Virus record (IMG/VR): IMGVR_UViG_3300020049_013266
Coordinates: 10,815-74,814 of that record
Strand: one strand, 5' to 3'
Length of the DNA: 64,000 nucleotides
Source: a virus
Taxonomy: Duplodnaviria; Heunggongvirae; Uroviricota; Caudoviricetes
Shown here: piece by piece, positions 9,095 to 61,428 of the stretch
How the letters are laid out: each line of letters starts with the position of its first letter
Numbering within the stretch: position 1 is the stretch's first letter
The notes under the pieces: model-generated
What the model was told of the DNA's origin: nothing
What the model saw: the letters and a program-made list of their open reading frames with translations, nothing else
Database searches by the model: none
Program-made: the position numbers and the translations under genes

Positions 9095-9181
9095 CGGAAG
9101 ATGTAGGACTCGAACCTACACGCCATTACGACTAACTGTTTTCAAGACAGCATCCCTTAGACCAACTTGGATTAATCTTCC
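9095..9181 (-). tRNA. tRNA-Ser (anticodon UGA), type II
   Basis: Acceptor GGAAGAU/AUCUUCC, anticodon stem GCUGU/ACAGU with loop CUUGAAA, long variable arm, T-arm GUAGG-UUCGAGU-CCUAC; 86 nt. Confidence 0.7.
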
Positions 9182-9186
9182 TTTTG

Positions 9187-9260
9187 TAGAAGCGGTGGGA
9201 TTTGAACCCACAGCGGAACAGATTTTAAGTCTGATGCGTTTACCCTTTCGCCACGCTCCT
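9187..9260 (-). tRNA. tRNA with anticodon UAA (Leu-type anticodon on a short-variable-loop body)
   Basis: Acceptor AGGAGCG/CGCUUCU (one G-U pair), D-stem GCG/CGC, anticodon stem (U)CAGA/UCUG(U) with loop CUUAAAA, 5-6 nt variable loop, T-arm GUGGG-UUCAAAU-CCCAC; 74 nt. Confidence 0.6.
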
Positions 9261-9266
9261 TTTTAG

Positions 9267-9349
9267 TGGGAGTAGATGGGCTCGAACCACCTACCTATGC
9301 CGGTTACCAGATTTACAGTCTGGCGCTTATCCTGTTTAGCATTACTCCC
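9267..9349 (-). tRNA. tRNA-Tyr (anticodon GUA), type II
   Basis: Acceptor GGGAGUA/UACUCCC, D-stem GCU/AGC, anticodon stem CCAGA/UCUGG with loop CUGUAAA, long variable arm, T-arm GGUGG-UUCGAGC-CCAUC; 83 nt. Confidence 0.75.
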
Positions 9350-14300: not shown

Positions 14301-15691
14301 GTCATGAGTTTACTACACACATACTAACAGATGCTTTTGATTGTTTTTGCTTTGGAAATGGAGTCGAAAGCTATAAAATAAGAGATTCTTTTACTGGAAA
14401 ATCTTTTTCTATTGACAGCAACCCTACTGGAATAGATAAAGAAGGTTATAAACGAATGAATAGATTCGCAGATATTACATATTCTGAAATATATAATTCC
14501 AATACCAATACAAATAGATTAAATGAGTTTAATTTATCAAACGCTAATTACAAAGATAACATTGAAAAGTCTTATGGGCCTATTTATGAAATTAAAGGAA
14601 AAGACACTAATTTAGACGTATTCCAAGAAGATAAAGTAAGTATTGTTTATTATGGAAAAGACTTATTGTTTAATGCGGATGGAGTGACAAATTTAACGAG
14701 TATTCCAGAAGTTTTAGGGCAGCAAAACACTTACGCTTCTGAAAACGGAATATCTGTACACCCATCTAGTTATGATGACTACGCTACAAATGATTATCTT
14801 ACAGACGTAAAGAGAGGAGTTGTTTTGAAGAAAAATGAATCTAACGGATTGTATGAGATTTCAGGTCAAAAAATGAAAAGTTATTTCAAAAAGTTGTTCC
14901 GAGATAACGTCATTAATCAAGTTATAGGCAAGTATGATCAATACCATGACGTATATGTATTGAATATCAAATATAACGATACTGAATATGTTACGTGGGT
15001 GTATTCGGATTTCAACAATGGATGGCTAGGAAGAATTACTTTTAATCCAGAAAATATGTGCCGGGTAAACAGTAAATTTTTCTCTTTTAAAAATGGAGAA
15101 ATATATGAACACAATCAGCCAACGGGAAGAAATACATTTTACGGCATCGAATACCCAAGTAAATTTGTTGTTAATTTTTCACAACTTCCAAGCGAACGAA
15201 AAGTATATAAAAACGGAGAAATAGAAGGAACAGATCCTTGGGAACTAGAATTAAAAACAGATTTAGAAGAAGGCTACATAAAGGCGACTGATTTCGTAAA
15301 GCAAGAGGGTGTTTTTAGAGCATACACAAGAACGTCTAACGATGTAGTTGATAATTCAGTGCTATCGACTCAAGGAATAGGAGATTGCGCTATAGTTGGC
15401 TTGGAATTAAGATTTTCGTTTCCGTTAGAGAGCGAAATATCTATTGGAGACAAAATAGTAAACTTGTCAAATCAACTTGTGGGTACAATACAAAACAAAT
15501 CAGAAAAAAGCTTAACTTTGGATGCGGTAGCAAACATCTCTTCTGGAGATTATGTAATGTGTTCAAAATCTAAAAGCTCAGAGTCAATGGGTATAAGAGG
15601 TTATCACATGCAAGTGAGCGGTTCCTTAATGAAAAACACCAAAACTGAAATTTACGCTGTTAATTCAGAAGTAGTCAAAAGTTATACTTAA
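11333..15691 (+). CDS. large virion structural protein (tail/nozzle/baseplate-like), 1452 aa
   Basis: Very long uninterrupted ORF rich in N/S/T/G/Y, typical of tail or adsorption-apparatus proteins; the antisense ORFs inside it are short. Confidence 0.6.
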   Translation: MKLQNTFSLGTVNKDSDSRFVSPNELVDAENFFVTTVDSSDLGVGKNALGNALKTAYNIPGGKTIGVGTNNSIGKIYNLIKGTSFDYVIEYDTETSVSEIILQSTTGGVLNFKEGEMINKVDVFIDSVSRDVIIFWSGDTNPPRCVNINTAKTWAIDGFSNDEISVMKPSPIFAPSINLTTSIDGVENNFIEDKMLCFATRYKYRDGYYSAYSSWSRIAFTPKKFDLDYQTYENNSMLNLSNAVDISFNVGPRDVVQVDLLFRESDNNKVYVIEEFVKQDEGWSDNSIHSFQFSKSKIYTTLPEEQYFRNFDNVPLESVCQTIIGNRIAYANFVEGRDIDEKVDFEVSLMSTEPFSSEVEGAVSDYVSVDNYSNLVDFEEGIEDGGSSPTDQMNYATNTIQMVLGSADRADFIIDVAPEGGYSTIPYNIIVKEGSTVLQQWTSLTGSQSRTYITLTNKNVQIYITSDLGLIYGLKLNYNTSLIGVIGAAISRYDYYSYFQLSFPKNGGYTSDLTGNTVIDTVTTFDMTGYSFLSGNQIRINLELKSSLVGNFEPSVTFFYNISENYADLTDFITNSGFVYQLETVFSLTFKNNFISNEGAFVSMVDFDVSQSGNSLILKTPLIVYSVTEPSSVVENKNEFYLIKDANLQTVEQSAFTSLHSNRDNEVGLIYMDEQGRKTTILNSPLNTIFIPAINSDLVNKLVVTINSNPPSWAKYYKFAIKKPKKGYEIIYGNEVFKDGIYRWIRLVGENKNKIEEGSLLTVKSDYSGPLDVLRKAKVLEIKQQEANFLSGNTYENGDEIIEQPGLYFKIKQGDFDVDITQDTYKSYIGRGKRRYASRSFVTTDPLFGFYDETNTWIPDSVLAGTILSFKISIKAYGSIEFDHELNIEKVAQDNYANIKEWFDAEIADDNSFTSYADDYLNDWEFTTPDGQSFRIKPWRDGTASRDIITTVEFNVNFAGGTLVFETEPIEDLETLFFETPETYVITDGSHEFTTHILTDAFDCFCFGNGVESYKIRDSFTGKSFSIDSNPTGIDKEGYKRMNRFADITYSEIYNSNTNTNRLNEFNLSNANYKDNIEKSYGPIYEIKGKDTNLDVFQEDKVSIVYYGKDLLFNADGVTNLTSIPEVLGQQNTYASENGISVHPSSYDDYATNDYLTDVKRGVVLKKNESNGLYEISGQKMKSYFKKLFRDNVINQVIGKYDQYHDVYVLNIKYNDTEYVTWVYSDFNNGWLGRITFNPENMCRVNSKFFSFKNGEIYEHNQPTGRNTFYGIEYPSKFVVNFSQLPSERKVYKNGEIEGTDPWELELKTDLEEGYIKATDFVKQEGVFRAYTRTSNDVVDNSVLSTQGIGDCAIVGLELRFSFPLESEISIGDKIVNLSNQLVGTIQNKSEKSLTLDAVANISSGDYVMCSKSKSSESMGIRGYHMQVSGSLMKNTKTEIYAVNSEVVKSYT

Positions 15692-18397: not shown

Positions 18398-21300
18398 ATG
18401 GAGCAACCTAAAAAGCCTAAATTCGACCCAACAAAAGCTTATGAAGAAGTAACGTCAGAAAAACCTAAGTTTAATCCTGATTTGCCTTTTGATGAAGTAA
18501 AAAAAAAAGACCCTTCTACATCTATCATTCAAAAGAAAGAGTTGGTTTTGGAACCGAAGACTGGTTCTTCGGGTGGTCGAGATATTGAAATGAAAACTTT
18601 TACGGGGTTGTCTGCGGAAGATTTGAAAACATTCAAATCTTCCGGAACTCCTATGCCCAAAATAAACAAGGAATTAAAAATTTCTTTGGATACGAACAAG
18701 GCTAACCTGAAACGAAAATCTGCTCTTGAAAAAGAACTTAAATCTGTTGTTGTTACTCCTGAAAACCAAGATGAAATATCTGCTAAAACAGATGAACTGT
18801 CGGCTATACAAAAACAGCAACAGGAATTCAAAGAGGCATCTGAGGCAAGGAGAATTGAGAAACAAAATTATAGTAAAATAAGTTCTCTTACCAATAAATT
18901 AGCTACGGGTAGTTCTCAACTTGGAGTAAATTTTGCAGCTATACCGGAACTTGCATATGATGTATTTGCTGCTCCTCAAAATGCCATTGCAGATGTATTC
19001 GATTTACCTAGTTTTAGAACAGATTCAGAAAAATTCAAGAAAACCATAGGTGTAAATAATGTTGTAAAAGATTATTATAAAAATGAAGTATCCCAACTTA
19101 GGGAAGAGGCGCAGAAAACAGATTTAAAATATCAAGGAGGGGTTTACGATTCGTTCGTTAACGGAGATTATCTCGGAGGATTCGATCAATTAACAAATAG
19201 TTTTACAGAATCGCTACCAGCTACAATGTCTATAATGGTTGGTGGAGCATACACTAAAGCACCTCAATTAATGGCGGCATCTTCCATGATGTTTGGAGCC
19301 GAAAAAGCCGAAAAATTAAAAGACGAAGACCCAGAAATGAATAACAATGTTCGTGTTGCAAACGCATTAGCAACAGGATTTATTCAAGGAGCTACCGAGA
19401 CTTTAAGTTCTGGAAGTATTGGCGCGGCAGCAAGAGGATTGGTTGAGAGGGAGGGAGCTAAAAAAGCAACTACAATTTTAAAAGACGGTCTTGTCGATTA
19501 CTACAAAACTGCATTGCAAAAGAATCCAATATTAGCATCGATGTCTGGGGAAGGATTAGAAGAAGCATTTCAAGGAGTTGCCGAAAATGCGGTTGATGTT
19601 GCGACTGGAGTTAAGCCGTCTGATTATAATATATACCAAACTGCAGTAGATGATTTCATTGGAGGGGCTTTTGGTGGAGCTGTTTTTGGAGGTGGGCTAA
19701 AAGGTCTTCAACAAATAACTAATTACCAAGACAAAAACCAGATAAAATCAAATACAAAAAAAGTATTCAATCTTCAAAATGAACTTCAAAATCCAGAATT
19801 GTCTCCGGAATCAAAAATTGAAATAAACAAAACTATTGACTCTCTGGTTAAGACCAATCAACAACTGGTTCAAAAGAATGTTGATCATGTAGAATCTTTG
19901 TCTCCAAAAGTCAAAGAAGAACTTCTTAAGGCTATTGATATTTCTGAATCGACTAAAGATAAAGCAAATCAGATTAAAAGCGACCCAAACACGTCTAAAG
20001 AGACAAAACAAATACTATTAGATAATCTTTCAAAAAAGTATAAAGTCGCGAATGAGCGTAAAACTAAAATTCTTGAAGGTTCTGTATCGGAAGTTGATGT
20101 TTTGCCTTTAAAAGAGCAAGACAAGCTAAAAAGAGAAGCATTAGAAGAGTTGACGGACGAACTTAACCCAGATGGTAAAAAAAACATAACAATCAGTAAT
20201 GAACAAATAACAAAAAGGGCTAATAAGATATACGACAGAACAAAAGATGTTAATTCCTTGACATTTGAAACCGTTGAACCAAAAACAAATACTGGTAGTC
20301 TATTTTTTGAAATAATTGCAAAATCAAAAGACGGGACTGATATAGGATCTATAGGCGTTTTTAAAAAAGGAGAAAATTTAGAGATAAGCGAGTCGGAACT
20401 TTACAATGACTCCTACAAAGGGAAGGGAGTTGGTTACGAAATGTATAAATCTATGGTAGCCGAGGCTAATAAAAAAGGCATAGAAGTTTTTAGTAGTTCT
20501 ACGGAATTCTCTAAAGACGCTCAAAAAGTATGGGAAAGATTAGAAAAAGAAGGACTAGCTATTAAAGTAGGAGATTTAAAAGGTGATCCTGATTATATAT
20601 CAAGAGAAGAGTTTCCACAATTTAAAACAATACTAAAAAATGAAATTAAATCAGAAACAACCTCTACTGGAACAACCGAAACCGAATCACAAACCGAAGT
20701 ACAAGAACCAACAAATGAAACAAAAGAGAAGGAAGTAGGAGAAAAAGGAGCTACAGTTGTATTAGAAGTAAAACCTGCTGAAAAAGTTGAAATCATAAAT
20801 GAAAGCCTACCGAAAACAGATACTGCTTCTGATGGAGATAATGGACTTGGAGTTAAGCCAGTGGATGAAGTACGAACTCCCAAGCAAGAAGATATTGTCG
20901 AAGAATCAGTTTCAGAAACCATTGACACTAAACCAAGTGAAAGAAAAGTTGAAGTAAAAAAAGAATTCAAAAGAGAGCCAGGAAAAAGAACTTTACTTAA
21001 TAGGCTTATTGAAGGAGGTAATGGAAAAGAAATTACTGAAAGCTTAAATGAATTACGAAACGACTACGATGTTAGAAATCAAAAAGAAGCAGATTCTTTT
21101 GCTAATAAGTTTATTGAAACAGTCGGACTTCCAGAAGCGCTTAGGGCGGCTAAAGATGGTTTAATAGAAAATAATGATATTAAGTTTTTAGTTTATTCAG
21201 AAGGATTGAATCAGTTAAAAAATGAAATTGATAGTGAATCCAATCTCGATGAAAGAGAATCTTTGATAAAGGAGTTTCAATCGCTTTCTGATTCATTTGA

Positions 21301-24300
21301 TAATGACGTTAGGAACTCTGGGCAAGGAATATCTATTTTAAATTACATCTACAATAAAGATCAGTCATTAAAATACAATCTATCAAAGTTGATTAGTGAT
21401 TATAAGGCAAATGATATTAATGGAGAAATTCCGGCAGAAGTAAAAGCTGAATTCGAGAAATTAACCAATCAGTTAAAGGATGTTGAGAAAAGAATAAAAG
21501 AAGCCGAAAAACGTGCTATAAAAGCCGAAGAAGAGCTTGCTATTAAAAATATTCAAGAAGATATTTCCAGGAAAAAAGAAATTTCCTCCAAAAACAAATC
21601 TGGCCTTACGGAAAAAGAACAAGTTCGTAAAAAAGAACTTAGAAACAAGTTTTTTGGAAGATTGAATGATGTTACAAGTATTGCTACAATGTTAGCTGAT
21701 AGTGAGTTTAGAGAATATTTGGGATTGACATTTAAGGCCGCCAAGGGAGATTTATCAAATTTTTCCAAACAAATTTTGAAAGAAATAGGAGATGGAGCTA
21801 AAAAACACATGCCTAATTTATTCAAAGAAGCGGAAGCTATATTTAATGAAGTTTCTAAAAAGGAACAACCAAAGGTAACTATAGACGAAAATGGGAAAAT
21901 AAAAATTCCAAATCAATTGTTCAGAGATTATGTAGAGGCCGGAGAAACAGACATTGATGTTATTTCTCAAAAAATAAAAGAAGATATATCAGAAGAATAT
22001 CCGGATGTTGATGTACGCGATATTCGTGATGCATTAACCGGTTATGGAAAACAAATAAATCCAAATAAGGATGAAATAACCGGAAAAATAAATCGTTTAA
22101 AAGAGTACGGGAGACTTCTATCTGCTTATGAAGATGTCTTGGGAGGAGATATGCCTAAGAAAACTGGAATCAAACGAGAAAAACCAGAGCAAAAGTCGAG
22201 AGAATTAAGAAGAGAGGTGAATCGTTTAGCAAAAGAATTAGGTCTTGAATCCGTCAACTTAGAAGAGCAATGGGCTACAGCTATTGATAAGATAAAATCA
22301 GGACTTAGAAACCAAATAGAAGATTTAGATAAGCAAATTTCAAAAGGAGAAAAAAGAAAAGTTGAAAGAATAGAAACCAGACTTGATTCTGAGGCAGAAG
22401 CATTGAAGTCTATTCGAGATGAAAAGAAAAAAATACTTGATGAATTAGTCGGCAAGCCTGAATTAACAGAAGAGCAAAGAATATCCAGAGCCGAAAACAC
22501 TTTGGAAAAATCTATTGCTAAGTTACAAGAAGAAATCGATACGCAAAATATTGCTTACAAAGAAAAACCAAGCCCGCTGAATTCTGCTAAACTTGAAAAT
22601 TTACGAACTCAAAAGAAAGGCTTAGTTGCAGCAAAAGAACTTTTGCGTGAAGAAGCAGGGCTTGTGGAAGAAAAACGCTTAAAAACGGCAAAAACGAGGG
22701 TTAAAAAGCAAATATCTGATTTAGAAGAAAGGATAGCTAACAAAGATTTTGCTAAAAAAGAAGTAAAACCTATTCTGGCAGATGATGAATTAAATAATCT
22801 GCGCGCAGAAAAAGAAGAAATTTATGAGCATTTTGAAAAACTTAAATATATCCAAGAATTAAAAAACAGAACTAAAGCCAGAAAGTTTTTGGACGCAGCT
22901 CTTGAATCACTAGGATTACTTCGTGCTGTAAAAGCTTCTTTGGATTTAGGTCTTATAGGTATTCAGCTAAGAGGCTTTACCTACTCAGAATTATTAAGAA
23001 GTCCGAAAGAATTAGGTAAAAAGTTTTTGAAGTTATTTGGGTCGATCGGTTCTCAAAAGAAAAGTGAAAAAGCTATGGCTCAATTAATTGGGCATCCTTT
23101 GTATGGATTAGCAAAAAAACTGGATATTGGGATCACACAGCCGGACCTTAGAAATGAAGTTCGTGAAGAGATGGCTTCTGGCAATTTGTTGAGGTTTATT
23201 TGGAACTCACCTATGATAGCTACGAAACTATTAGGAGGAAAAGAATTTACAGATGCAAAAAGAAAATCTATTGGAGACACTATGATTGATATCTTTAAAA
23301 AGCAATACAACAAAGTAGCCAAGGATAAATTAGAAATCACTGAAAAAGATAAGATTTCGCGTTCTCAACAATGGAAAAATATAAATGCATTTGAAGCCAT
23401 CGAAAGAGGTCTTTCAGCTTACGGGAACCAGTTGAGATTCGAAGAGTTTGTTCGTGGAGTAGATAAGCTAAAAGCGGAAGGAAAAGATCCTGTAAATAAT
23501 CCCGAAGATTATGAATCTTTAGCAAGTTATATTAGAACTTTTTCAGGTAGAGCAAAACCAAAAGCGTTAGTTACAAATCAAAAACTATTAAATGTTTTTT
23601 TCTTTTCTTTTAAGAACGCTGTGTCTGTTTTTCAACAATTAAATCCATGGTATATGGTTTATGAGCTTAATAAGGCTAATTTTAAAAATGGGAAATTTAA
23701 ACAAACAACTGCAGGTAAAATGGCTATGGCAACTATGTTTAAATCTGTGGCTTCAACAACAGCTACTATTTTGTTTATCATGGCAGCATATAATGCTTTC
23801 AAAGATGATGACGATGAAGAAATGACAATAGAAACCGATCCAAACAGTTCTGATTTCGGAAAAATACGTAAAGGAAATTTTAGATATGATCCTTGGGGTG
23901 GTTACGTTCCTTTGATTACGCTATATTTCAGACTATTTACTGAGGAAGTGAAAAAGGCTGACGGAACCAAATATAAATTTGGTGAAGACAGGTTTGGTAT
24001 AGAAAGCAGAGGAGATGCAGCATCTCGTTTTCTATTCAATAAAGAATCTCCAGGATTTCAAGCATTTCATCATTACATGACCTCAAAAGAAGAAGTTGAT
24101 GAAACTACTGGAGAAACAGTGAGAGTGAATAAGTTTGGCGAAAAACTTTCGGAGGATGAAGCTTTCTCATTGTATCCAATATTTATTGGTTCTATTAAAA
24201 AAAATATGGAAGAAGATCCGGATGCCGTGAAAGACTTTTTGACTTATTGGTCAGTACTTGGATTAGGTAACGTTCAGAATTATGAATCGAAATCCAAATC

Positions 24301-24370
24301 AGGAGGTAAAAAAGGAAAAGGTTCTGGTCCGAATCCTCCTTCGCCACCAAAACCTCCAACTCCAAATTAA
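18398..24370 (+). CDS. giant virion protein (tape-measure or internal ejection protein-like), 1990 aa, with embedded GNAT-like motif
   Basis: 6-kb ORF with long coiled-coil K/E regions, Gly-rich hydrophobic stretches (GGAFGGAVFGGGLKG), a C-terminal transmembrane-like segment and a PPSPPKPP tail; residues around 640-720 carry a YKGKGVGYEMYKSMVAEA motif-A-like signature. Confidence 0.6.
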   Translation: MEQPKKPKFDPTKAYEEVTSEKPKFNPDLPFDEVKKKDPSTSIIQKKELVLEPKTGSSGGRDIEMKTFTGLSAEDLKTFKSSGTPMPKINKELKISLDTNKANLKRKSALEKELKSVVVTPENQDEISAKTDELSAIQKQQQEFKEASEARRIEKQNYSKISSLTNKLATGSSQLGVNFAAIPELAYDVFAAPQNAIADVFDLPSFRTDSEKFKKTIGVNNVVKDYYKNEVSQLREEAQKTDLKYQGGVYDSFVNGDYLGGFDQLTNSFTESLPATMSIMVGGAYTKAPQLMAASSMMFGAEKAEKLKDEDPEMNNNVRVANALATGFIQGATETLSSGSIGAAARGLVEREGAKKATTILKDGLVDYYKTALQKNPILASMSGEGLEEAFQGVAENAVDVATGVKPSDYNIYQTAVDDFIGGAFGGAVFGGGLKGLQQITNYQDKNQIKSNTKKVFNLQNELQNPELSPESKIEINKTIDSLVKTNQQLVQKNVDHVESLSPKVKEELLKAIDISESTKDKANQIKSDPNTSKETKQILLDNLSKKYKVANERKTKILEGSVSEVDVLPLKEQDKLKREALEELTDELNPDGKKNITISNEQITKRANKIYDRTKDVNSLTFETVEPKTNTGSLFFEIIAKSKDGTDIGSIGVFKKGENLEISESELYNDSYKGKGVGYEMYKSMVAEANKKGIEVFSSSTEFSKDAQKVWERLEKEGLAIKVGDLKGDPDYISREEFPQFKTILKNEIKSETTSTGTTETESQTEVQEPTNETKEKEVGEKGATVVLEVKPAEKVEIINESLPKTDTASDGDNGLGVKPVDEVRTPKQEDIVEESVSETIDTKPSERKVEVKKEFKREPGKRTLLNRLIEGGNGKEITESLNELRNDYDVRNQKEADSFANKFIETVGLPEALRAAKDGLIENNDIKFLVYSEGLNQLKNEIDSESNLDERESLIKEFQSLSDSFDNDVRNSGQGISILNYIYNKDQSLKYNLSKLISDYKANDINGEIPAEVKAEFEKLTNQLKDVEKRIKEAEKRAIKAEEELAIKNIQEDISRKKEISSKNKSGLTEKEQVRKKELRNKFFGRLNDVTSIATMLADSEFREYLGLTFKAAKGDLSNFSKQILKEIGDGAKKHMPNLFKEAEAIFNEVSKKEQPKVTIDENGKIKIPNQLFRDYVEAGETDIDVISQKIKEDISEEYPDVDVRDIRDALTGYGKQINPNKDEITGKINRLKEYGRLLSAYEDVLGGDMPKKTGIKREKPEQKSRELRREVNRLAKELGLESVNLEEQWATAIDKIKSGLRNQIEDLDKQISKGEKRKVERIETRLDSEAEALKSIRDEKKKILDELVGKPELTEEQRISRAENTLEKSIAKLQEEIDTQNIAYKEKPSPLNSAKLENLRTQKKGLVAAKELLREEAGLVEEKRLKTAKTRVKKQISDLEERIANKDFAKKEVKPILADDELNNLRAEKEEIYEHFEKLKYIQELKNRTKARKFLDAALESLGLLRAVKASLDLGLIGIQLRGFTYSELLRSPKELGKKFLKLFGSIGSQKKSEKAMAQLIGHPLYGLAKKLDIGITQPDLRNEVREEMASGNLLRFIWNSPMIATKLLGGKEFTDAKRKSIGDTMIDIFKKQYNKVAKDKLEITEKDKISRSQQWKNINAFEAIERGLSAYGNQLRFEEFVRGVDKLKAEGKDPVNNPEDYESLASYIRTFSGRAKPKALVTNQKLLNVFFFSFKNAVSVFQQLNPWYMVYELNKANFKNGKFKQTTAGKMAMATMFKSVASTTATILFIMAAYNAFKDDDDEEMTIETDPNSSDFGKIRKGNFRYDPWGGYVPLITLYFRLFTEEVKKADGTKYKFGEDRFGIESRGDAASRFLFNKESPGFQAFHHYMTSKEEVDETTGETVRVNKFGEKLSEDEAFSLYPIFIGSIKKNMEEDPDAVKDFLTYWSVLGLGNVQNYESKSKSGGKKGKGSGPNPPSPPKPPTPN

Positions 24371-40302: not shown

Positions 40303-40593
40303 TTAATTAAATTTTGGTTTGTAAGCGGTGATTACTGGTTCTCTGTTGTATGTGTACTGCTTTGTTCCGCAAATAGCACATTCTCTGCTCCATCGAGCTT
40401 TTTCGACATCCCTGTATCCGGCAAAACTCCAGTGAGGATCTGATCCCGCTCCATCCTGAACACTTCCGTATCCTTCTTTGACAGTTTCAGGATCATAAAT
40501 AGCTGCTTTGAATGAGTGGGTACAATTTTTTATTTTGTTTTTCTCCGACTCAATCTGTCTTTGTAATTCGTTTATTTTATCATTAGGATTCAT
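40303..40593 (-). CDS. hypothetical protein
   Basis: 96-aa ORF downstream of the integrase gene; 11-nt overlap. Confidence 0.4.
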   Translation of the reverse strand: MNPNDKINELQRQIESEKNKIKNCTHSFKAAIYDPETVKEGYGSVQDGAGSDPHWSFAGYRDVEKARWSRECAICGTKQYTYNREPVITAYKPKFN

Positions 40594-41836
40594 TACTGTT
40601 CCATTTGTTATGCATTATTTCAGCATATTCTTGTTTGCTTTTTTTGTTATAATGATTTAACATATTGCTGTTTTTGCTCCATCCCATAATGGCTGACAAA
40701 GTTTCGTTGTCAACTTTTCCATAGAAGTTGGACGCGAATGATTTGCGACAAACGTGCGAGGAAATAAGTTGCCACTTCCTGTAATAGCCAAAAACCTTAC
40801 GCTTACGTTTTTTATCAAACAACTTCCCGTACATCTGCTTATCTATTTCACAGATTTGGCAAATTGTTTTAATGTGAATATTGAAATCGGTTTTACTTAT
40901 TTTTGGTGGCAGATTACCGAAGTTTGATTCAATTACTTTTTTTAATACCGGATGAATGGGAACCACGATTCTTTTGCCTGTTTTCTGCGTTTTAATTTTG
41001 AATACACCATCTGAAATATTAGAAGTGTCTAATTTAGAGAAATCCCCAAATCTCATTCCTGAAAACACGCCAACCAAGAAGTTTTGCTTTGTAATATCCA
41101 ATTCGTAATTATCTGAAAAATCGTGATCAATAATGCTTTGTATTTCGGCTTCATTCAAATAAACTCCCTCAGCATCTTCGTCTTTATCGAAATAGATTCT
41201 TTGTTTAAACGAATTACTTACTTCGATATTGTGTTCGAGTGCGCGATTAAGGAAAAATCGGAACCGGCCAACGTGTCTTTCAATTGTGGAAACCTGGTAA
41301 AACTCAGTTTCTAAATAATCCGCAAATGATTTCAGGTCCGAAACGCGAATATTTCTCAACTGCAGTCGCTCTCCGATTACTGATTCATATTCCGAAACAA
41401 TGGAGACGAATTTTTTGTACTGGTTATGCAACGGCAATCCCATTTTTTTCTTACTTGATACATTCCAATCGTCAGCATGATTTTCCAGCCACCACAGCGC
41501 AAAATCTACTAAATATATAGTATGTGCCGGATTAATCATTTTTAACTCTTCTTTAGGGCGATTAAAGCTGTTTTTTATGGCAGATGCAACCCAGAATTTA
41601 TCAACTATAATTCCCCTGCTAAAATCGTTATTGTACTGTTTTAGAAGATCTGTTTTTAATTGTTGCAGCGAAATGTTCAATCCCGGATTATTAATAACGC
41701 TCTGATTATCTAAATCCCATTCAGCATCTTTCAACATGATATTTGTTGAACATGAAATATCCAATTTAGAATATCTCATTCTAACAAGGAGTTTCTTAAC
41801 CTCCTTTCTTCCTTGTAATGAAAATGTAATGTTCAT
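40583..41836 (-). CDS. int: tyrosine-type site-specific integrase
   Basis: 417 aa with a catalytic-domain signature: GMRFGD (Arg I), HVCRKSFASN (H..R box II), MGWSKNSNMLNHY (H/W...Y catalytic Tyr); N-terminal arm/SAM-like region. Confidence 0.7.
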   Translation of the reverse strand: MNITFSLQGRKEVKKLLVRMRYSKLDISCSTNIMLKDAEWDLDNQSVINNPGLNISLQQLKTDLLKQYNNDFSRGIIVDKFWVASAIKNSFNRPKEELKMINPAHTIYLVDFALWWLENHADDWNVSSKKKMGLPLHNQYKKFVSIVSEYESVIGERLQLRNIRVSDLKSFADYLETEFYQVSTIERHVGRFRFFLNRALEHNIEVSNSFKQRIYFDKDEDAEGVYLNEAEIQSIIDHDFSDNYELDITKQNFLVGVFSGMRFGDFSKLDTSNISDGVFKIKTQKTGKRIVVPIHPVLKKVIESNFGNLPPKISKTDFNIHIKTICQICEIDKQMYGKLFDKKRKRKVFGYYRKWQLISSHVCRKSFASNFYGKVDNETLSAIMGWSKNSNMLNHYNKKSKQEYAEIMHNKWNSNES

Positions 41837-54471: not shown

Positions 54472-54557
54472 TTAAGTGTTGGCTGAGTGGTTGAAAGCAA
54501 CGGGCGACCATACCCGTGGGAGGTAATTACCCCGAAGGTTCGAATCCTTCACACTTA
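54472..54557 (+). tRNA. tRNA-like gene (type II, Ser-like body) with non-canonical anticodon loop CGACCAU
   Basis: Acceptor UAAGUGU/ACACUUA, D-arm GCU-GAGUGGUUGAA-AGC (Ser-like), anticodon stem ACGGG/CCCGU with a loop lacking U33, long variable arm, T-arm GAAGG-UUCGAAU-CCUUC; no encoded CCA. Confidence 0.45.
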
Positions 54558-54737
54558 TCTTAGCAAGGTATAAACATTAAGGAAAATTCGTCACAGGTTT
54601 ATATTAAGTTGCAGACGGACCTACATGCTACAGGTTAAAAAGGCTTACTCATAAAGTCTAGCAAGCACAAACTAACGAGGAAAGCCGGATGCGATAACAT
54701 CAATTCCGGTTTAATTTAACCAAAAACCAAAATAACC

Positions 54738-57811: not shown

Positions 57812-58087
57812 ATGAGTATAGAGAACAGAAAAGGAATGGTTTCCATAAGTAAAGATGTATTGGTTGATAATCCTAAAATAAGTTACCTAAAAAGTGTATT
57901 CTCTAATTTTTTCCCAGTAGGTTCAGAGTCCGAAATGAATCATCAGTTTTATGAAGGTGTTAGATTCTACGGATACAGCCCTTTTTTTAGAGAACTTGAA
58001 AAGGGAGAAAAAATTCCCCGCTATGAAATGAATTTTAGAATGGACGGAGAGGAAGTCATTTTTACAGGAGTAAAAGAAATATTATAA
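57812..58087 (+). CDS. hypothetical protein
   Basis: 91-aa ORF. Confidence 0.4.
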   Translation: MSIENRKGMVSISKDVLVDNPKISYLKSVFSNFFPVGSESEMNHQFYEGVRFYGYSPFFRELEKGEKIPRYEMNFRMDGEEVIFTGVKEIL

Positions 58088-58095
58088 AAACCCGA

Positions 58096-58821
58096 TTGCA
58101 AGGAAGTGCTACAAAAATTATGAATAAAGAACAATTAATTGCCAAAGGAATTAAGCATAAATTTAACGGAAAAGAAACATTGTTTCAAGTAGAAAGCTTG
58201 AATAAACATTTTGATGGACTGGTGATCCATGAATCTGACATCTTAACAGATGAATTTGAAGACCAATACGATGAATACGTAAAGGCCGGTGATGTGAATT
58301 TTGATTCAGCTACTCCAAATAAAGTGGATCCAGAAGAAGAAAGGGAATTTGAAGAAGAACCTATTTCCATTAAAGCAGAAACTATTCATGGAAATCAAAT
58401 AGTTATAGCTGATTTTAAACCTACAGGGATGACTTTTGAAGAAGCAGAAGAACTTCTTTCTAAAGGAAAATTAGTTTCTTTGCCAGAATGGGAAGGTTTT
58501 TGGTTTAAAAACATCAAGAAAGACGAATTACTTGTGTTTACAAAAGATGGTGAAATTTTAGACACGCCTTTCGATGAATACAAATTAAGAAACGACTGGG
58601 TTAAAGCAGAGCCTACTCCGGAGCAAAAAGAAAAACTTAACCAGTACTTCGAAAATTTAGAAATAAATGGATTAAAGGTAGTTGACCCGGTAATCGAAAG
58701 TAACAAGGTAGAAAATTTGGAGCCAGTTATTCCTCCAGCAGCTGCAAAAGAAGGAGTTTTAAAAACCGAAGATATTGGACTTCCAAAGCCAAAAGAAAAG
58801 AAAGCTGCTAATAAAAAGTAA
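58096..58821 (+). CDS. hypothetical acidic protein
   Basis: 241 aa; the last gene of the plus-strand block before a terminator. Confidence 0.45.
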   Translation: MQGSATKIMNKEQLIAKGIKHKFNGKETLFQVESLNKHFDGLVIHESDILTDEFEDQYDEYVKAGDVNFDSATPNKVDPEEEREFEEEPISIKAETIHGNQIVIADFKPTGMTFEEAEELLSKGKLVSLPEWEGFWFKNIKKDELLVFTKDGEILDTPFDEYKLRNDWVKAEPTPEQKEKLNQYFENLEINGLKVVDPVIESNKVENLEPVIPPAAAKEGVLKTEDIGLPKPKEKKAANKK

Positions 58822-58837
58822 TTTCAATAAATAAAAA

Positions 58838-58880
58838 AAAATCCCGATCTCTGCATTTTATAGCGAGTCGGGATTTTTAC
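58838..58880. terminator. bidirectional terminator (stem AATCCCGA / TCGGGATT, flanked by A-run and T-run)
   Basis: Lies between the convergent 58096..58821 (+) and groES-like (-) genes. Confidence 0.55.
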
Positions 58881-58894
58881 TATTAACAAAAAAC

Positions 58895-59194
58895 CTAAAA
58901 TACTAAAACGATGTCTGGGTAAAAAACCAGTATGTATGGATTTCCATCTTGTGTGAATGGAGTTGTTTTGTATTTGTCAAACACAACTTCTGCTCCCTCG
59001 GTTAATACGTAACTCCCATCATCATATCTTGGGGTTCCTTGCCCAACGGAAACTACACGACCTCTTTTCTGTTTTTCGTTAGCATCAACTATTCCAGTGA
59101 TATCTATTCCTCCTGCAGTTTTGTTTTCATTGAAAATCTCCTCCACAACTACAATCATGTTTAATGCCTGTCCTTTGAATTTATTTGGTGTCAT
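58895..59194 (-). CDS. groES: co-chaperonin GroES (cpn10)-like
   Basis: 99 aa; ...EEIFNENKTAGGIDITG...RGRVVSVGQG...VVFDKY...ILVF... follows the GroES pattern (mobile loop, AGGI, VG.G, roof hairpin). Confidence 0.65.
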   Translation of the reverse strand: MTPNKFKGQALNMIVVVEEIFNENKTAGGIDITGIVDANEKQKRGRVVSVGQGTPRYDDGSYVLTEGAEVVFDKYKTTPFTQDGNPYILVFYPDIVLVF

Positions 59195-60743
59195 GTGCGA
59201 ATCTTTTTAAAGTGATAACGTTATCAGTTCTTAATAAATTATTTGAAGCAGAAGCAGATGTAATTAAAGCTGTCTTAATACCTTTTGCGGTATCGATTAT
59301 TCCTGCTTCAAACATATCTACATTTTCGTATTTCTTTACGTCATATCCAATAGGGTATTTAGGATATTTTTCTCCTGTAGATTTTACGCCAGCATTTTCC
59401 ATTATTTTCATAAACGGAGCTTTTATGGACCAAGCTGTAACATCATCAATAAGAGTATTTTCGTTTTCAAAAATACTTAGTAATGCAATTCCTCCTCCAG
59501 CAACAACTCCACCGTCCTTAGAAGATCTTACAGCGCAAATAGCGTCATCAATACGTGCTACTTTTTCTTCCACTTCACTAGGGGTAATTCCTCCTACGAA
59601 TACAGTAGAAATTCCTCCAGAAATTTTAGAAATTCTTTCACGGATATAATTCTTTTCTGATTCGTTTGTCTGTAGTTTTATTTGAGCGGCCAAGTCTAAA
59701 ATTTTGCCTTCAATTTTTTCTTTGTCAATATTTTTGTCGGCAGTAATTACTGTATCTTTTTTTCCAATTTCAATACGCTCACATGATCCAAGATAAACCG
59801 GCTCCTTTCCATCATAATTTGTTCTTGAAATACCTTCCAAAACTTCACACCCAAGAATTAAAGCCAAATCTTTCATCGTTTCTCTTCCTTTTTTACCTTG
59901 ATAAGGAGGGCGAATAATGCAGAATGGATAATTGTGCTTGATTCTGTTTTCCAAAATCATATTGGAAATATCATGGGTCATATTTGAAATAATAACAAGA
60001 GGTCTTCCCTGACCGGCAGAATAATCCAGAAACGGAATAACTTCATTTGCGGTTTGGAAATTTATTGATGAGCAAAGAACCAATGGATTATCAAAAACAA
60101 CTGACTGAGTTTCGTTTACATTGATGAATCCTTCGTGTAGGTAGCCGGAATCAATCGGATTTCCTTCAATATGCTCCACATACGTTTCATCTGTAAAACT
60201 TCTTTTGTGTGATACAATTCCATGTTCTCCGGCTTTAATGAAGGCTTCTTGTACAATTTTTGCAATTTCTTCATCTCCGTGAGCAGATGTTTTTGCAATG
60301 TCAAACATTAATTCATCTGTAACCGGAATAGCTATGGAGTCAATGTATTCTAAAACTTTTAAAACCGATTCGTCAATTTTGTTTTTTATTTCGATAGAAG
60401 AAGTGCCTTTTTTTAATTCTTCAAGAGAGTTTTTGAAGAAAGCTTGTGTAAGCACGCACACCAAGGTGGTGTTGTCTCCTACGAGTTCAAATTGCTTTTT
60501 CGTGGCCTCTTTCAATATTTCACAGGCTATATGTTCCATGGCATCTTCGAAATAAAGCTGTTCCAAACTATCAAAACCATCTGCGGTTATATTAGGAAGT
60601 CCTCCGGCTGTCTCAAACAAAACATTAGAACCTCGATATCCCATAGTACTTCCAATGATGTCGCAACTCTTGTTAAGACCGCTTAATAATTTCTCCTTTG
60701 CCTCATCTCCAGAGACAACTTCTCTTAAAATAGTATTACTCAT
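59181..60743 (-). CDS. groEL: chaperonin GroEL (cpn60)-like
   Basis: 520 aa. N-terminal region collinear with GroEL (GYRGSNVLFE..GGLPNITADGFDSLEQLYFED..EHIACEILKE, and GDNTTLVCVLTQA corresponding to GDGTTTATVLAQA). Equatorial C-terminal region GIIDTAKGIKTAL matches GILDPTKVTRSAL. No GGM tail. Confidence 0.75.
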   Translation of the reverse strand: MSNTILREVVSGDEAKEKLLSGLNKSCDIIGSTMGYRGSNVLFETAGGLPNITADGFDSLEQLYFEDAMEHIACEILKEATKKQFELVGDNTTLVCVLTQAFFKNSLEELKKGTSSIEIKNKIDESVLKVLEYIDSIAIPVTDELMFDIAKTSAHGDEEIAKIVQEAFIKAGEHGIVSHKRSFTDETYVEHIEGNPIDSGYLHEGFINVNETQSVVFDNPLVLCSSINFQTANEVIPFLDYSAGQGRPLVIISNMTHDISNMILENRIKHNYPFCIIRPPYQGKKGRETMKDLALILGCEVLEGISRTNYDGKEPVYLGSCERIEIGKKDTVITADKNIDKEKIEGKILDLAAQIKLQTNESEKNYIRERISKISGGISTVFVGGITPSEVEEKVARIDDAICAVRSSKDGGVVAGGGIALLSIFENENTLIDDVTAWSIKAPFMKIMENAGVKSTGEKYPKYPIGYDVKKYENVDMFEAGIIDTAKGIKTALITSASASNNLLRTDNVITLKRFAHDTK

Positions 60744-60761
60744 TTTTTTATTTATTTAGAT

Positions 60762-61265
60762 TTATATGTGATCCCATACTTGATTTAATTTTATTCTGCT
60801 AATGTGAGCGCAACTAACATTGAATATTTTAGACAAAGCTACTCCAGTTAATACACTAGTTCTTATTTCTAACACATCTTTTTCTGTAAGTTTTGAGAAC
60901 CCATTTTTTTCGCCTCTCAATGCAGAATTTAATCCGTTTACCCATGCATGATCCACGTTTTCTTTAGTCGTACTCCATTCTAAATTCCAATCATTATTGT
61001 TGGTTTTATCCCCGTCCTTGTGATTTACTTCGGGTTTGTTTTCAGGATTTGGAATAAATGCCATCGCAACTAATCGATGAACTTGGAAATGCTTTCTTTT
61101 TAATCCATATAAAGTCACTCTAAAATATCCTTTGGTTGTTGTTGACAATGTTAGATTTTTAATTTTTTTTACTTTGGTGGATCCGTTGAATTTTAAATTT
61201 CTAACATTTCCAGAATTACTAACCTGATAATTCTCATAATCAATAATGTTTGCCCATTTTTCCAT
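60762..61265 (-). CDS. HNH homing endonuclease (paralog of 4369..5040)
   Basis: VHRLVAMAFIPNPENKPEVNHKDGDKTNN, the classic HNH_3 motif; N-terminal NUMOD4-like YENYQVSNSGNVRN; C-terminal HTH-like region. Confidence 0.75.
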   Translation of the reverse strand: MEKWANIIDYENYQVSNSGNVRNLKFNGSTKVKKIKNLTLSTTTKGYFRVTLYGLKRKHFQVHRLVAMAFIPNPENKPEVNHKDGDKTNNNDWNLEWSTTKENVDHAWVNGLNSALRGEKNGFSKLTEKDVLEIRTSVLTGVALSKIFNVSCAHISRIKLNQVWDHI

Positions 61266-61389
61266 AACAATTTAATAAAAAAGCCCAAAAGAGAGCTATC
61301 ACACTTCCCTTTCGAGCTTAGTTTTTTAGATTTCTCTAAATATCTTAAAGCAAGTGATAGATTGCGATACAAATATACAATTTTAAAAA

Positions 61390-61428
61390 CGACAACAAAC
61401 GTTTGCTGTCATTAAATTAATATCTTTG
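61390..61428 (+). promoter_or_regulatory. conserved promoter element (CGACAACAAACGTTTG plus TAtcTTTG -7 box)
   Basis: Fourth same-orientation copy; 28 nt before the ATG at 61456. Confidence 0.55.

What the first reader, a model, noticed from the sequence alone, without database searches (positions are those of the whole stretch)
58895..61265. Phage-encoded GroEL plus GroES pair in inverted order, with an HNH homing endonuclease immediately upstream
A complete chaperonin system (520-aa GroEL-like and 99-aa GroES-like) is encoded on the minus strand. The order is groEL then groES, with a 14-bp overlap; bacterial operons are groES then groEL. The GroEL copy has a diverged ATP-site motif (GDNTTLVCVL versus GDGTTTATVL) and lacks the GGM tail. 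Phage GroEL homologs are rare; Pseudomonas phage EL encodes one, but without a co-chaperonin. A matched GroES is unusual and suggests a dedicated folding machine for a phage substrate such as a capsid or giant virion protein. The adjacent HNH endonuclease (60762..61265) is a paralog of the one beside the capsid gene (4369..5040), suggesting homing-mediated spread.
Basis: partly seen in the sequence, partly recalled or inferred. Interest (0 to 1): 0.65.

Follow-up and report, generated by a model that had tools for sequence, protein, structure and literature searches.

The report
Phage GroEL–GroES operon with inserted HNH
This phage of Bacteroidota carries its own, apparently working GroEL-GroES protein-folding machine in the reversed gene order, an arrangement already described for marine viruses and cultured Flavobacterium phages; the only local peculiarity is a mobile HNH nuclease gene inserted into the operon's leader.

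Summary
GroEL (59181-60743, 520 aa), GroES (58895-59194, 99 aa, 14-nt overlap) and an HNH/NUMOD4 endonuclease (60762-61265) lie on the minus strand. Pfam, PHROG, PDB and fold matches are all strong. The ATPase residues are invariant in 74 viral relatives. dN/dS is about 0.06 for GroEL and 0.035 for GroES against close relatives. GDNTT is the clade consensus, not decay.

The claim of rarity is wrong. 251 of 50,697 phage records encode a GroEL. Marine et al. 2017 described the GroEL>GroES order (70 of 133 viral contigs carrying both genes). Cultured Elemovirus phages, the nearest relatives by capsid and GroEL, are annotated with the same order. Of 88 related loci examined, 67 are GroEL>GroES, including every informative locus with GroEL at least 33% identical. 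GroEL and GroES identities co-vary (r = 0.91).

The HNH is a roughly 605-nt insertion just after the conserved promoter-like box. It is absent from 8 metagenomic relatives and from Elemovirus. It is present at the same site in one relative, with a conserved hairpin leader. Family members occur sporadically at other sites, which fits free-standing homing endonucleases.

Verdict: a new member of a known kind, of modest interest. No viral GroEL+GroES pair has been characterised biochemically in the papers read.

The parts
61370..61399 (-). Promoter-like site TTTG-N18-TATATTTG upstream of the operon. It resembles the Bacteroidetes -33/-7 type (TTTG / TAnnTTTG). A second TAtcTTTG box faces the divergent 801-aa gene.
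   Evidence: The sequence is conserved at the same place in the window and in 4 HNH-less relatives (alignment A3) and in L018. The pattern match is, but the pattern is not enriched in the window as a whole (3 found, 4.5 expected). The assignment therefore rests on conservation, position and my own knowledge of the Bacteroidetes consensus. It is inferred, not shown.
60765..61369 (-). Inserted cassette of about 605 nt (leader plus HNH gene). It lies between the -7-like box and the last ~20 nt before the groEL ATG.
   Evidence: blastn homology with HNH-less relatives (L003, L004, L010, L017, L019) ends at window 61369-61370 and resumes at 60764-60766. Relatives have only about 36 nt there.
61281..61319 (-). 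Hairpin (16 pairs) followed by a U-run (61275-61280), inside the cassette leader and about 10 nt before the HNH ATG. It looks like a terminator or attenuator.
   Evidence: RNA fold: -22.4 kcal/mol for the 87-nt leader, z = -2.7. The simple terminator scan also flags it. The ~100-nt leader belongs to a 163-nt stretch that is 88% identical to L018. The two HNH ORFs there give no blastn match and are only 42% identical as proteins. One stem pair changes G-C to C-G. Function is not shown.
60762..61265 (-). Free-standing HNH endonuclease gene (NUMOD4 + HNH_3 domains, 167 aa). It lacks the ~22-residue N-terminal 'YYKNLSLEDLFY' segment that its relatives have.
   Evidence: Pfam. PHROG 59 'HNH endonuclease' 3.1e-48. 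Absent at this site in 8 metagenomic relatives and in Elemovirus. Present at the same site in L018.
59181..60743 (-). groEL: group I chaperonin large subunit, 520 aa, no GGM tail.
   Evidence: Pfam 133 bits. PDB 1e-75 to an ancestral FCB-group GroEL and 1e-65 to E. coli GroEL. AF2 model pLDDT 88.7, with TM 0.76-0.81 to GroES-bound GroEL chains. Catalytic residues invariant. dN/dS 0.06-0.07.
58895..59194 (-). groES: co-chaperonin, 99 aa. The mobile loop reads G-I-D-I instead of G-I-V-L. The roof hairpin is 4 residues shorter than in E. coli.
   Evidence: Pfam Cpn10 51.9 bits. AF2 model pLDDT 88.3; the 30 best PDB fold matches are all Cpn10/GroES or Cpn20 co-chaperonin chains. The N-terminal residues F6, G8, A10, L11 and N12 are invariant in 41 relatives, which supports the upstream ATG. 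dN/dS 0.035 against L004.
58830..58884 (.). Hairpin flanked by an A-run and a T-run, between the convergent groES and the 241-aa gene. Probably a bidirectional intrinsic terminator.
   Evidence: RNA fold -20.9 kcal/mol, z = -4.0. Sequence. The simple scan missed it because the stem carries a bulge.
4369..5040 (-). Second HNH-family gene (paralog), convergent with and directly after the major capsid gene (2969-4309).
   Evidence: 42% identity to the groEL-adjacent copy. NUMOD4 49.4 bits; HNH_3 is not reported, and the HNH motif carries a 7-residue insert. A homolog is present at the same place in 3 relatives' capsid loci (L096-L098). It is absent in 6 (L095, L099-L101, L103, L104).

Best explanation
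The window comes from a roughly 70-77-kb tailed phage of Bacteroidota, distantly related to Flavobacterium Elemovirus and to Cellulophaga podophages. It carries the lineage's own group I chaperonin operon in the order groEL then groES.

The operon is a self-contained transcription unit. A conserved promoter-like site is shared with a divergent tail-fibre-like gene. The two genes are translationally coupled by a 14-nt overlap. A hairpin terminator separates them from the convergent early genes.

The inferred working: GroEL assembles into heptameric rings that bind and hydrolyse ATP, and the phage GroES caps them. Together they fold phage proteins during infection. The 446-aa major capsid protein is the most likely client, by analogy with T4 gp31/gp23, lambda and HK97. 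The pair has been inherited together for a long time within this viral clade; it is not a recent capture from the host.

In this genome a free-standing HNH homing-endonuclease gene, with a ~100-nt hairpin-containing leader, has been inserted between the promoter and groEL. It is therefore probably co-transcribed with the chaperonin genes. It belongs to a family that comes and goes at several intergenic sites in these phages.

Shown: gene identity, gene order, conservation, purifying selection, the insertion boundaries, and the sporadic distribution of the HNH.
Inferred: promoter use, ring assembly, the client protein, and homing activity.
For: Identity:
- Pfam and PHROG hits; PDB sequence hits.
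- AF2 models and Foldseek matches for both proteins.

Functionality:
- T30, G35, D52, G53, D87, T89, D398, G414-416 and D495 (E. coli numbering) are invariant in 74 viral sequences.
- dN/dS is 0.06-0.07 for GroEL and 0.035 for GroES.

Lineage:
- The capsid protein's best cultured matches are Elemovirus (36%); Cellulophaga phages also match. GroEL is 38.8% identical to Elemovirus.
- A portal, virion proteins, a DNA polymerase processivity factor and an integrase are present.
- There are 340 metagenomic GroEL relatives, with contigs of 66-77 kb.

Gene order as a clade trait:
- Elemovirus is annotated GroEL then GroES.
- All 8 relatives' loci have this order.
- 67 of 88 loci are GroEL>GroES, including every informative one with GroEL at least 33% identical.
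- Marine et al. 2017 describe the same arrangement.

Co-inheritance: GroEL and GroES pairwise identities correlate at r = 0.91, and no Mantel permutation of 999 reached that value.

Insertion: alignment A3 and the blastn breakpoints.

HNH sporadic distribution.

Terminator and leader hairpins.
Against: - No expression, assembly or client data exist for this or any other viral GroEL+GroES pair in the papers read. The characterised viral chaperonins (EL, OBP, AR9) all work without a co-chaperonin.
- The promoter pattern is not enriched in the window.
- If the leader hairpin is an efficient terminator, it would also cut off groEL/groES expression from the conserved promoter. No alternative promoter was identified.
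- The residues of the R197-E386 salt bridge and of the inter-ring contacts of E. coli GroEL are not conserved, and the segments around E. coli residues 427-437 and 462-470 are shortened. The allostery and the ring number may therefore differ from the textbook cycle.
- The central residue of the GroES mobile loop is Asp, not a hydrophobic residue.
Confidence: 0.85

Rival explanations
1. The pair is a recently captured host groESL operon (an auxiliary gene picked up from a Bacteroidota host) rather than an old viral lineage gene.
For: The best PDB sequence match is a reconstructed ancestral Fibrobacteres-Chlorobi-Bacteroidetes chaperonin. This fits an ultimate origin in the host phylum. One close relative is labelled 'MAG: Bacteroidota bacterium' by its source (P0005).
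Against: - The gene order is the reverse of the bacterial operon, and there is no CIRCE operator.
- GroEL is only 28% identical to E. coli GroEL and about 30% to the FCB ancestor, far below what I know of identities among bacterial GroELs.
- The pair is conserved in the same genomic slot across phage contigs that share 47-89% GroEL identity, and the two genes diverge together.
- The 'MAG' contig is a 72-kb phage-like contig with the same synteny.
- Marine et al. also found viral GroELs deeply divergent from bacterial ones.
Confidence: 0.04
2. The GroEL is a pseudo-chaperonin: an ATPase-dead or decaying copy, as the G88N change, the lost GGM tail and the lost salt bridges might suggest.
For: GDGTT reads GDNTT, LGPKG reads MGYRG, and there is no GGM tail. 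R197 and E386 are replaced (by S and P). The inter-ring contact residues are not conserved.
Against: - All catalytic and nucleotide-contacting Asp, Thr and Gly residues are invariant in 74 sequences.
- The deviations are clade-wide consensus states (Asn in 50 of 74, Tyr in 55 of 74), not private lesions.
- dN/dS is 0.06-0.07.
- The ORF is full length and gives a confident three-domain model.
Confidence: 0.04
3. The chaperonin pair acts mainly on host proteins, or as a stress or cold-adaptation aid that keeps the infected cell productive, rather than as a dedicated capsid-folding machine.
For: Marine et al. raise the possibility that viral chaperonins alter host as well as viral proteins (abstract as I recall it; paper read). 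The operon sits next to the early and anti-defence gene block, not inside the structural module. The only clients shown for viral chaperonins are endolysins.
Against: Nothing here distinguishes between clients. The classical precedents (T4 gp31 with gp23, lambda, HK97; my own knowledge) all concern head proteins. The operon shares a divergent promoter region with a tail-fibre-like gene.
Confidence: 0.2
4. The HNH gene is an ancestral resident of this site that most relatives have lost, not a recent mobile insertion.
For: L018, whose GroEL is 76% identical, has an HNH at exactly the same site with a highly similar leader (88% over 163 nt). The two HNH proteins have nevertheless diverged to 42% identity. 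Long residence with fast HNH evolution could explain this.
Against: - Closer relatives (L003 at 89% and L004 at 83% GroEL identity) lack it, with a clean junction of about 36 nt.
- The family also appears at three other sites, on either strand, in other relatives.
- The leader is far better conserved than the ORF. This fits repeated exchange at a constrained site better than simple vertical descent.
Confidence: 0.2

Closest known systems
Viral 'GroEL>GroES' operons of marine virioplankton (Marine et al. 2017, ISME J, PMC5649160)
   Same: - Reversed gene order.
- Divergence from bacterial GroEL.
- Association with structural genes like those of Cellulophaga podoviruses.
- A non-hydrophobic residue in the GroES mobile-loop tripeptide, reported there for 23% of viral GroES.
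- Genomes of about 70 kb.
   Different: The window's GroES keeps a short roof hairpin, whereas the paper's GroEL>GroES clusters mostly lack it. Nothing about an HNH gene at the operon appeared in the passages of the paper I read.
Flavobacterium phages of the genus Elemovirus (e.g. MT497098) and Maribacter phage Panino
   Same: - Elemovirus is the nearest cultured relative by capsid (36%) and GroEL (38.8%).
- Elemovirus is annotated 'chaperonin GroEL' followed directly by 'co-chaperonin GroES'.
- In Elemovirus the operon is transcribed divergently from the genes upstream of it and convergently with the genes downstream, as here.
- Panino is reported to have both genes.
   Different: Protein identity is only about 40%, and there is no nucleotide similarity. 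The Elemovirus GroES is 83 aa and has no roof hairpin. There is no HNH at the locus.
Jumbo-phage chaperonins: Pseudomonas phage EL gp146, OBP gp246, Bacillus AR9 gp228
   Same: They are phage-encoded GroEL-like ATPases and are thought to fold phage proteins.
   Different: They work without any co-chaperonin and are single-ring or ring-dissociating. They are only 24-25% identical over 77-78% of the length. The PDB entry 6tmt matches at E = 3e-26, against 1e-65 or better for bacterial GroELs.
T4 gp31 / RB49 CocO
   Same: They are phage-encoded GroES-type lids that adapt a chaperonin cage to a phage capsid protein.
   Different: Those phages supply only the lid and use the host GroEL. The gp31 fold match is weak here (rank 34, 14% identity).
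Free-standing HNH homing endonucleases of phages (I-HmuI-like, HNH_3 + NUMOD4; T4 mob and seg genes as the behavioural model)
   Same: - The domain make-up.
- Intergenic insertion next to conserved genes.
- Presence or absence between close relatives.
- Several paralogs per genome.
   Different: No cleavage site or homing event has been demonstrated. This copy lacks the family's N-terminal segment and shares a conserved hairpin leader with the copy in L018.

Membership tests
Group I chaperonin GroEL / Cpn60 | Sequence match to the Cpn60_TCP1 profile above the curated threshold, closest to GroEL rather than to group II chaperonins | tested here: met
   133.4 bits against a cut-off of 34.3. PDB GroEL and Hsp60 chains score 1e-60 to 1e-75, whereas the group II ancestor scores 8e-22.
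Group I chaperonin GroEL / Cpn60 | Equatorial-intermediate-apical three-domain fold | tested here: met
   AF2 model pLDDT 88.7, pTM 0.80. Full-length Foldseek matches to GroEL/Hsp60, with TM up to 0.81.
Group I chaperonin GroEL / Cpn60 | ATP-binding and hydrolysis residues (E. coli T30, D52, D87, T89-T90, D398, G414-G416, D495) | tested here: met
   All are present in the window protein. All are invariant in 74 viral relatives except T90, which is Thr or Ser. G88 is Asn, which is the clade consensus.
Group I chaperonin GroEL / Cpn60 | Gly-Gly-Met C-terminal tail and the E. coli inter-ring and R197-E386 contacts (typical of bacterial GroEL but not universal) | tested here: not met
   The tail ends ...LKRFAHDTK. 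R197 is S and E386 is P. Positions R452, E461, S463 and V464 are variable, and the segments around 427-437 and 462-470 are shortened.
Group I chaperonin GroEL / Cpn60 | Heptameric ring assembly, ATPase activity and refolding activity | not testable with these tools
   This needs protein biochemistry or cryo-EM.
Co-chaperonin GroES / Cpn10 | Cpn10 profile match and beta-barrel fold | tested here: met
   51.9 bits against a cut-off of 21.1. AF2 model pLDDT 88.3; the top 30 fold matches are all Cpn10/GroES or Cpn20 co-chaperonin chains.
Co-chaperonin GroES / Cpn10 | Mobile loop with a conserved Gly followed by three hydrophobic residues that dock on GroEL helices H and I | tested here: inconclusive
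   A loop is present and is the least confident part of the model (pLDDT 70-73). Its Gly is invariant, but the tripeptide reads I-D-I, and the Asp is invariant in 41 clade members. Marine et al. report such polar loops in 23% of viral GroES.
Viral GroEL>GroES operon clade (Marine et al. 2017) | groEL immediately followed by groES on the same strand, on a viral contig | tested here: met
   14-nt overlap. The same order is found in 67 of 88 related loci.
Viral GroEL>GroES operon clade (Marine et al. 2017) | Structural genes related to Cellulophaga/Flavobacterium podoviruses | tested here: met
   The 85 capsid matches are Flavobacterium (68), Cellulophaga (15), Maribacter (1) and an unclassified Caudoviricetes (1).
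Viral GroEL>GroES operon clade (Marine et al. 2017) | Placement inside clade GroEL>GroES-1 or GroEL>GroES-2 of the published tree | not tested
Bacterial groESL heat-shock operon | Order groES then groEL, with a CIRCE or sigma-32 type heat-shock control region | tested here: not met
   The order is reversed. There is no CIRCE match within 3 mismatches anywhere in the window.
Co-chaperonin-independent jumbo-phage chaperonins (EL gp146 type) | No cognate GroES gene; close sequence relationship to gp146, gp246 or gp228 | tested here: not met
   A GroES gene is fused to the operon. Identity to the EL and AR9 proteins is 24-25% over 77-78% of the length.
Free-standing HNH homing endonuclease (HNH_3 + NUMOD4) | HNH nuclease domain plus NUMOD DNA-binding module | tested here: met
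   NUMOD4 40.7 bits, HNH_3 34.1 bits. PHROG 59, 3.1e-48.
Free-standing HNH homing endonuclease (HNH_3 + NUMOD4) | Sporadic presence or absence at an intergenic site between conserved genes in related genomes | tested here: met
   The HNH is absent in L003-L010 and in Elemovirus, and present in L018 at the same site. Homologs occur after groES in L026/L027, about 1 kb downstream in L015/L016, and after the capsid gene in 3 of 9 loci.
Free-standing HNH homing endonuclease (HNH_3 + NUMOD4) | Cleavage of the HNH-less allele and copying of the gene into it | not testable with these tools
   This needs nuclease assays and co-infection crosses.

The most novel reading that the evidence does not exclude
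The chaperonin of this clade may be a private, orthogonal folding machine. Its GroES has an invariant acidic mobile loop (G-[I/F/L]-D-[I/L]). Its GroEL has lost the R197-E386 allosteric salt bridge, the GGM tail and the E. coli inter-ring contacts. The pair might therefore work as a single-ring or otherwise non-canonical GroES-dependent chaperonin that does not mix with the host's GroEL/GroES. That would be a type not yet characterised: every viral chaperonin studied so far lacks a co-chaperonin. A smaller novelty is also possible. The conserved hairpin leader that accompanies two very different HNH genes at the same site could be a regulatory or targeting element of the homing cassette.
Probability: 0.25. 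Interest if true: 0.55.

Novelty: new member of a known kind. Interest (0 to 1): 0.27.

Why it matters
The finding adds one more, fairly divergent, member to a published class of viral GroEL>GroES operons, so it changes little by itself.

Its value is as a pointer. The clade is large: 340 relatives in public metagenomes. It is under strong purifying selection and has cultured cousins (Elemovirus, Panino). Yet no viral GroEL+GroES pair has been studied biochemically in the papers read. The clade-wide changes could make it a useful natural experiment on how a chaperonin cycle can be rewired. These changes are the acidic GroES loop, the lost allosteric salt bridge, the lost inter-ring contacts and the missing GGM tail.

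The HNH insertion shows how homing endonuclease genes settle in the leaders of conserved phage operons.

Tried and rejected
- Megablast of the locus against 50,697 phage records found no match, so no close sequenced relative exists.
- tblastn of GroES against the phage records found no match at E <= 1e-3. The protein is too short and diverged, so GroES in the relatives was found through synteny and an HMM instead.
- The first IMG/VR scan with the single GroEL sequence found nothing. The scan with alignment A7 gave 80 loci.
- An exact look-up of the window's GroEL found it is not on record. The identical GroES led to L011 and L012, which are fragments of the same population.
- The sigma-70 promoter scan gave counts at chance level and was not used.
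- The strict Bacteroidetes-type pattern is not enriched in the window, so the promoter call rests on conservation only.
- Rfam gave only chance-level hits on the locus.
- The leader 18-21-mers occur only in the window, L011 and L018. The single metagenome scan returned one unrelated bacterial contig, a chance match.
- There is no CIRCE operator.
- The window's genes next to groES (91, 241 and 264 aa) have no Pfam family, so the anti-defence genes seen in relatives were not found here.
- I looked for a conserved basic residue in GroEL helices H and I that could pair with the GroES loop Asp. None was evident in the alignment, so I make no claim.
Full report
**1. The observation**

- groES at 58895-59194 (99 aa);
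- groEL at 59181-60743 (520 aa);
- an HNH gene at 60762-61265 (167 aa).

The groEL stop and the groES start overlap by 14 nt, and 18 nt separate the HNH stop from the groEL ATG.

The family assignments are far above chance:
- Pfam Cpn60_TCP1 133.4 bits (cut-off 34.3), Cpn10 51.9 bits (cut-off 21.1), NUMOD4 plus HNH_3;
- PHROG 'chaperonin groEL' 7.8e-98 and 'co-chaperonin GroES' 2.2e-11;
- PDB sequence matches of 1e-75 to a reconstructed ancestral Fibrobacteres-Chlorobi-Bacteroidetes GroEL and 1e-65 to E. coli GroEL;
- GroES matches to Cpn10/Cpn20 chains.

AlphaFold models built on clade alignments are confident: GroEL pLDDT 88.7 and GroES pLDDT 88.3. They superpose on GroEL/Hsp60 and on Cpn10 structures respectively.

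The motif GDNTTLVCVL and the missing GGM tail are both real. The HNH is 42% identical (E = 8e-36) to the ORF at 4369-5040 beside the capsid gene, and these are the only two copies in the window.

**2. Is the chaperonin likely to work?**

I aligned the window protein with 72 metagenomic relatives, an Elemovirus GroEL and E. coli GroEL. The nucleotide-site residues T30, G35, D52, G53, D87, T89, D398, G414-G416 and D495 (E. coli numbering) are invariant.

The 'diverged' G88N is the clade consensus (Asn in 50 of 74 viral sequences), and so is MGYRG in place of LGPKG.

Nei-Gojobori dN/dS against close relatives is 0.06-0.07 for GroEL and 0.035 for GroES.

Several clade-wide differences from E. coli are real:
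- there is no GGM tail;
- R197 and E386 are replaced;
- the inter-ring contact residues are variable, and the segments carrying them are shortened;
- the GroES mobile loop reads G-I-D-I, and the Asp is invariant in 41 clade members;
- the roof hairpin is short.

These differences suggest a modified cycle but do not show what it is.

**3. What genome is this?**

The window begins inside a portal gene. It encodes a capsid protein, very large virion proteins, a DNA polymerase processivity factor, a tyrosine integrase and five clustered tRNAs.

It has no nucleotide-level relative among 50,697 phage records. Its capsid protein matches only Flavobacterium (68), Cellulophaga (15), Maribacter (1) and one unclassified phage record, with Elemovirus best at 36%. 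Its GroEL is also closest to Elemovirus, at 38.8%.

Public metagenomes hold 340 GroEL relatives at E <= 1e-30, with identity up to 89%, many on contigs of 66-77 kb. Contigs L011 and L012 are 99.97-100% identical to the window and come from two JGI samples.

**4. Is the arrangement unusual? It is not.**

- 251 phage records encode a GroEL homolog.
- Elemovirus MT497098 is annotated 'chaperonin GroEL' directly followed by 'co-chaperonin GroES'. It has the same divergent and convergent neighbours.
- All eight metagenomic relatives I inspected (47-89% GroEL identity) have groEL then groES. The pair overlaps or abuts in five of them, and a small extra ORF lies between the genes in three. In all eight the pair sits about 110-145 nt downstream of a divergent tail-fibre-like gene and runs convergent with early genes.
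- In a wider sample of 88 loci, 67 are GroEL>GroES, 8 are GroES>GroEL and 13 have no GroES nearby. Every informative locus with GroEL at least 33% identical to the window is GroEL>GroES.
- Marine et al. 2017 (PMC5649160) had already reported three relevant things. 40% of viral GroEL contigs carry GroES. 70 of those 133 are GroEL>GroES and form two clades linked to Cellulophaga-like podoviruses. Polar mobile-loop residues and roof-hairpin deletions are common in viral GroES.
- Maribacter phage Panino also has both genes (PMC11590407).

GroEL and GroES pairwise identities across 62 non-redundant pairs correlate at r = 0.91, and none of 999 Mantel permutations reached that value. The pair has therefore been inherited together.

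Given 28% identity to E. coli GroEL and no CIRCE element, a recent host capture is unlikely.

**5. Anatomy of the transcription unit**

The intergenic region upstream is conserved in the window and its relatives. It contains TTTG-N18-TATATTTG facing groEL and TAtcTTTG facing the divergent gene. Both resemble the Bacteroidetes -33/-7 consensus, which I know from the literature rather than from a tool. The pattern is not enriched genome-wide, so the promoter call is an inference.

Downstream of groES there is a hairpin flanked by an A-run and a T-run (-20.9 kcal/mol, z = -4.0). It probably terminates both convergent units.

**6. The HNH gene**

Homology with HNH-less relatives stops at window 61369-61370, which is the last base of the -7-like box. 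It resumes at 60764-60766. The relatives have only about 36 nt in between. The HNH and a ~100-nt leader are therefore a ~605-nt insertion into the operon's 5' leader.

One IMG/VR relative, L018 (GroEL 76% identical), carries an HNH at exactly the same site. The two HNH proteins are only 42% identical and give no blastn match. Yet the promoter-plus-leader stretch is 88% identical over 163 nt. It includes a 16-pair hairpin followed by a U-run just before the HNH ATG, with one G-C to C-G exchange in the stem. I cannot say what this leader does. If it is a terminator, it would also limit groEL expression.

Members of the same HNH family occur at other sites:
- directly after groES on the other strand in L026 and L027;
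- about 1 kb downstream of groES in L015 and L016;
- after the capsid gene in the window and in 3 of 9 relatives' capsid loci.

This sporadic, multi-site, intergenic distribution is the signature of free-standing homing endonuclease genes. It supports mobility of the HNH. It does not support spread of the chaperonin by homing.

A possible trace of exchange is that L010 is 90-95% identical to the window on both flanks but only 75-78% across groEL-groES.

**7. Mechanism and rivals**

The best-supported reading is a functional, lineage-specific GroEL/GroES system that folds phage proteins. The 446-aa capsid protein is the most likely client, by analogy with T4, lambda and HK97 (my own knowledge).

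The alternatives are weighed in the rival section: recent host capture, a dead pseudo-chaperonin, a host-directed role, and an ancestral rather than mobile HNH. The first two are contradicted by the data. The last two remain open.

**8. Novelty**

This is a new member of a known kind. In the papers read, the characterised viral chaperonins (EL, OBP, AR9) all lack a co-chaperonin (PMC9598537), and no viral GroEL+GroES pair has been characterised. The clade would be a reasonable experimental target, but this locus is not in itself surprising.

Noticed in passing
L003 8229-8474, L005 8168-8446, L004 7913-8194, L006 7917-8183, L008 7512-7826; also L003 9168-9374 and L004 8896-9105: In several relatives, small genes convergent with groES carry precomputed Pfam hits to anti-defence sponge families. 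In L003-L006 the gene directly next to groES hits Acb2_Tad1_hairpin or Tad2-like; in L008 the Acb2_Tad1_hairpin gene is the third gene downstream. Sequestin hits lie a little further on. The window (genes at 57812-58821) and L010 lack these hits. The slot next to the chaperonin operon therefore looks like a variable anti-defence hot spot.
   Followed up: partly
L003 7571-7816, L005 7547-7804, L010 6553-6795: Three close relatives have an extra 80-85-aa ORF of unknown family between groEL and groES. It starts with the same overlapping ATG and the first residues (MTPNK in L003 and L005) that begin groES in the window. The groES genes of all three carry a 15-residue hydrophobic/basic insert (…NFFSKFKFLNFFF…) in the roof hairpin. 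Other relatives' GroES proteins have similar inserts of 15-22 residues.
   Followed up: partly
window 61275-61369 (minus strand); L018 3299-3400: The ~100-nt leader of the HNH cassette, with its hairpin and U-run, is far better conserved between the window and L018 than the HNH ORFs that follow it. The 163-nt promoter-plus-leader stretch is 88% identical, whereas the HNH proteins are 42% identical. It matches no Rfam family and no other locus.
   Followed up: partly
window 58426-60764 compared with L010: Mosaic identity. L010 is 90-95% identical to the window in the tail-fibre gene and in the early genes on either side, but only 75-78% identical across groEL-groES. The drop begins at the HNH insertion point. 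This suggests recombinational replacement of the chaperonin cassette.
   Followed up: no
window 8915-9349 and 54473-54559: There is a cluster of five tRNA genes (Leu-TAG, Ser-GCT, Ser-TGA, Leu-TAA, Tyr-GTA) on the minus strand. ARAGORN also calls a separate tRNA-like gene with a four-base anticodon (acca).
   Followed up: no
window 40583-41836 (minus strand): A tyrosine integrase gene is present (Phage_integrase 40.4 bits; PHROG 1). The related Maribacter phage Panino is reported as virulent despite also having an integrase.
   Followed up: no
window 4369-7571 (minus strand): The whole minus-strand block after the capsid gene (the HNH paralog plus about eight small genes) is missing in relatives L099-L101. 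In those relatives the capsid gene is followed directly by the homolog of window 7737-8873. A second variable island therefore sits inside the structural module.
   Followed up: partly
window 11333-15691 and 18398-24370: There are two very large ORFs. The 1452-aa one matches PHROG 14478 'virion structural protein'. The 1990-aa one matches no PHROG or Pfam family.
   Followed up: no
P0005 / L005 (GCA_040384005.1) and L006 (GCA_040384225.1): Phage contigs of 72-78 kb from this lineage are deposited inside metagenome-assembled genome assemblies at NCBI; the source labels the GroEL of L005 (P0005) 'MAG: ... [Bacteroidota bacterium]'. This is probably a binning artefact, which would at least hint at the host phylum.
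   Followed up: no
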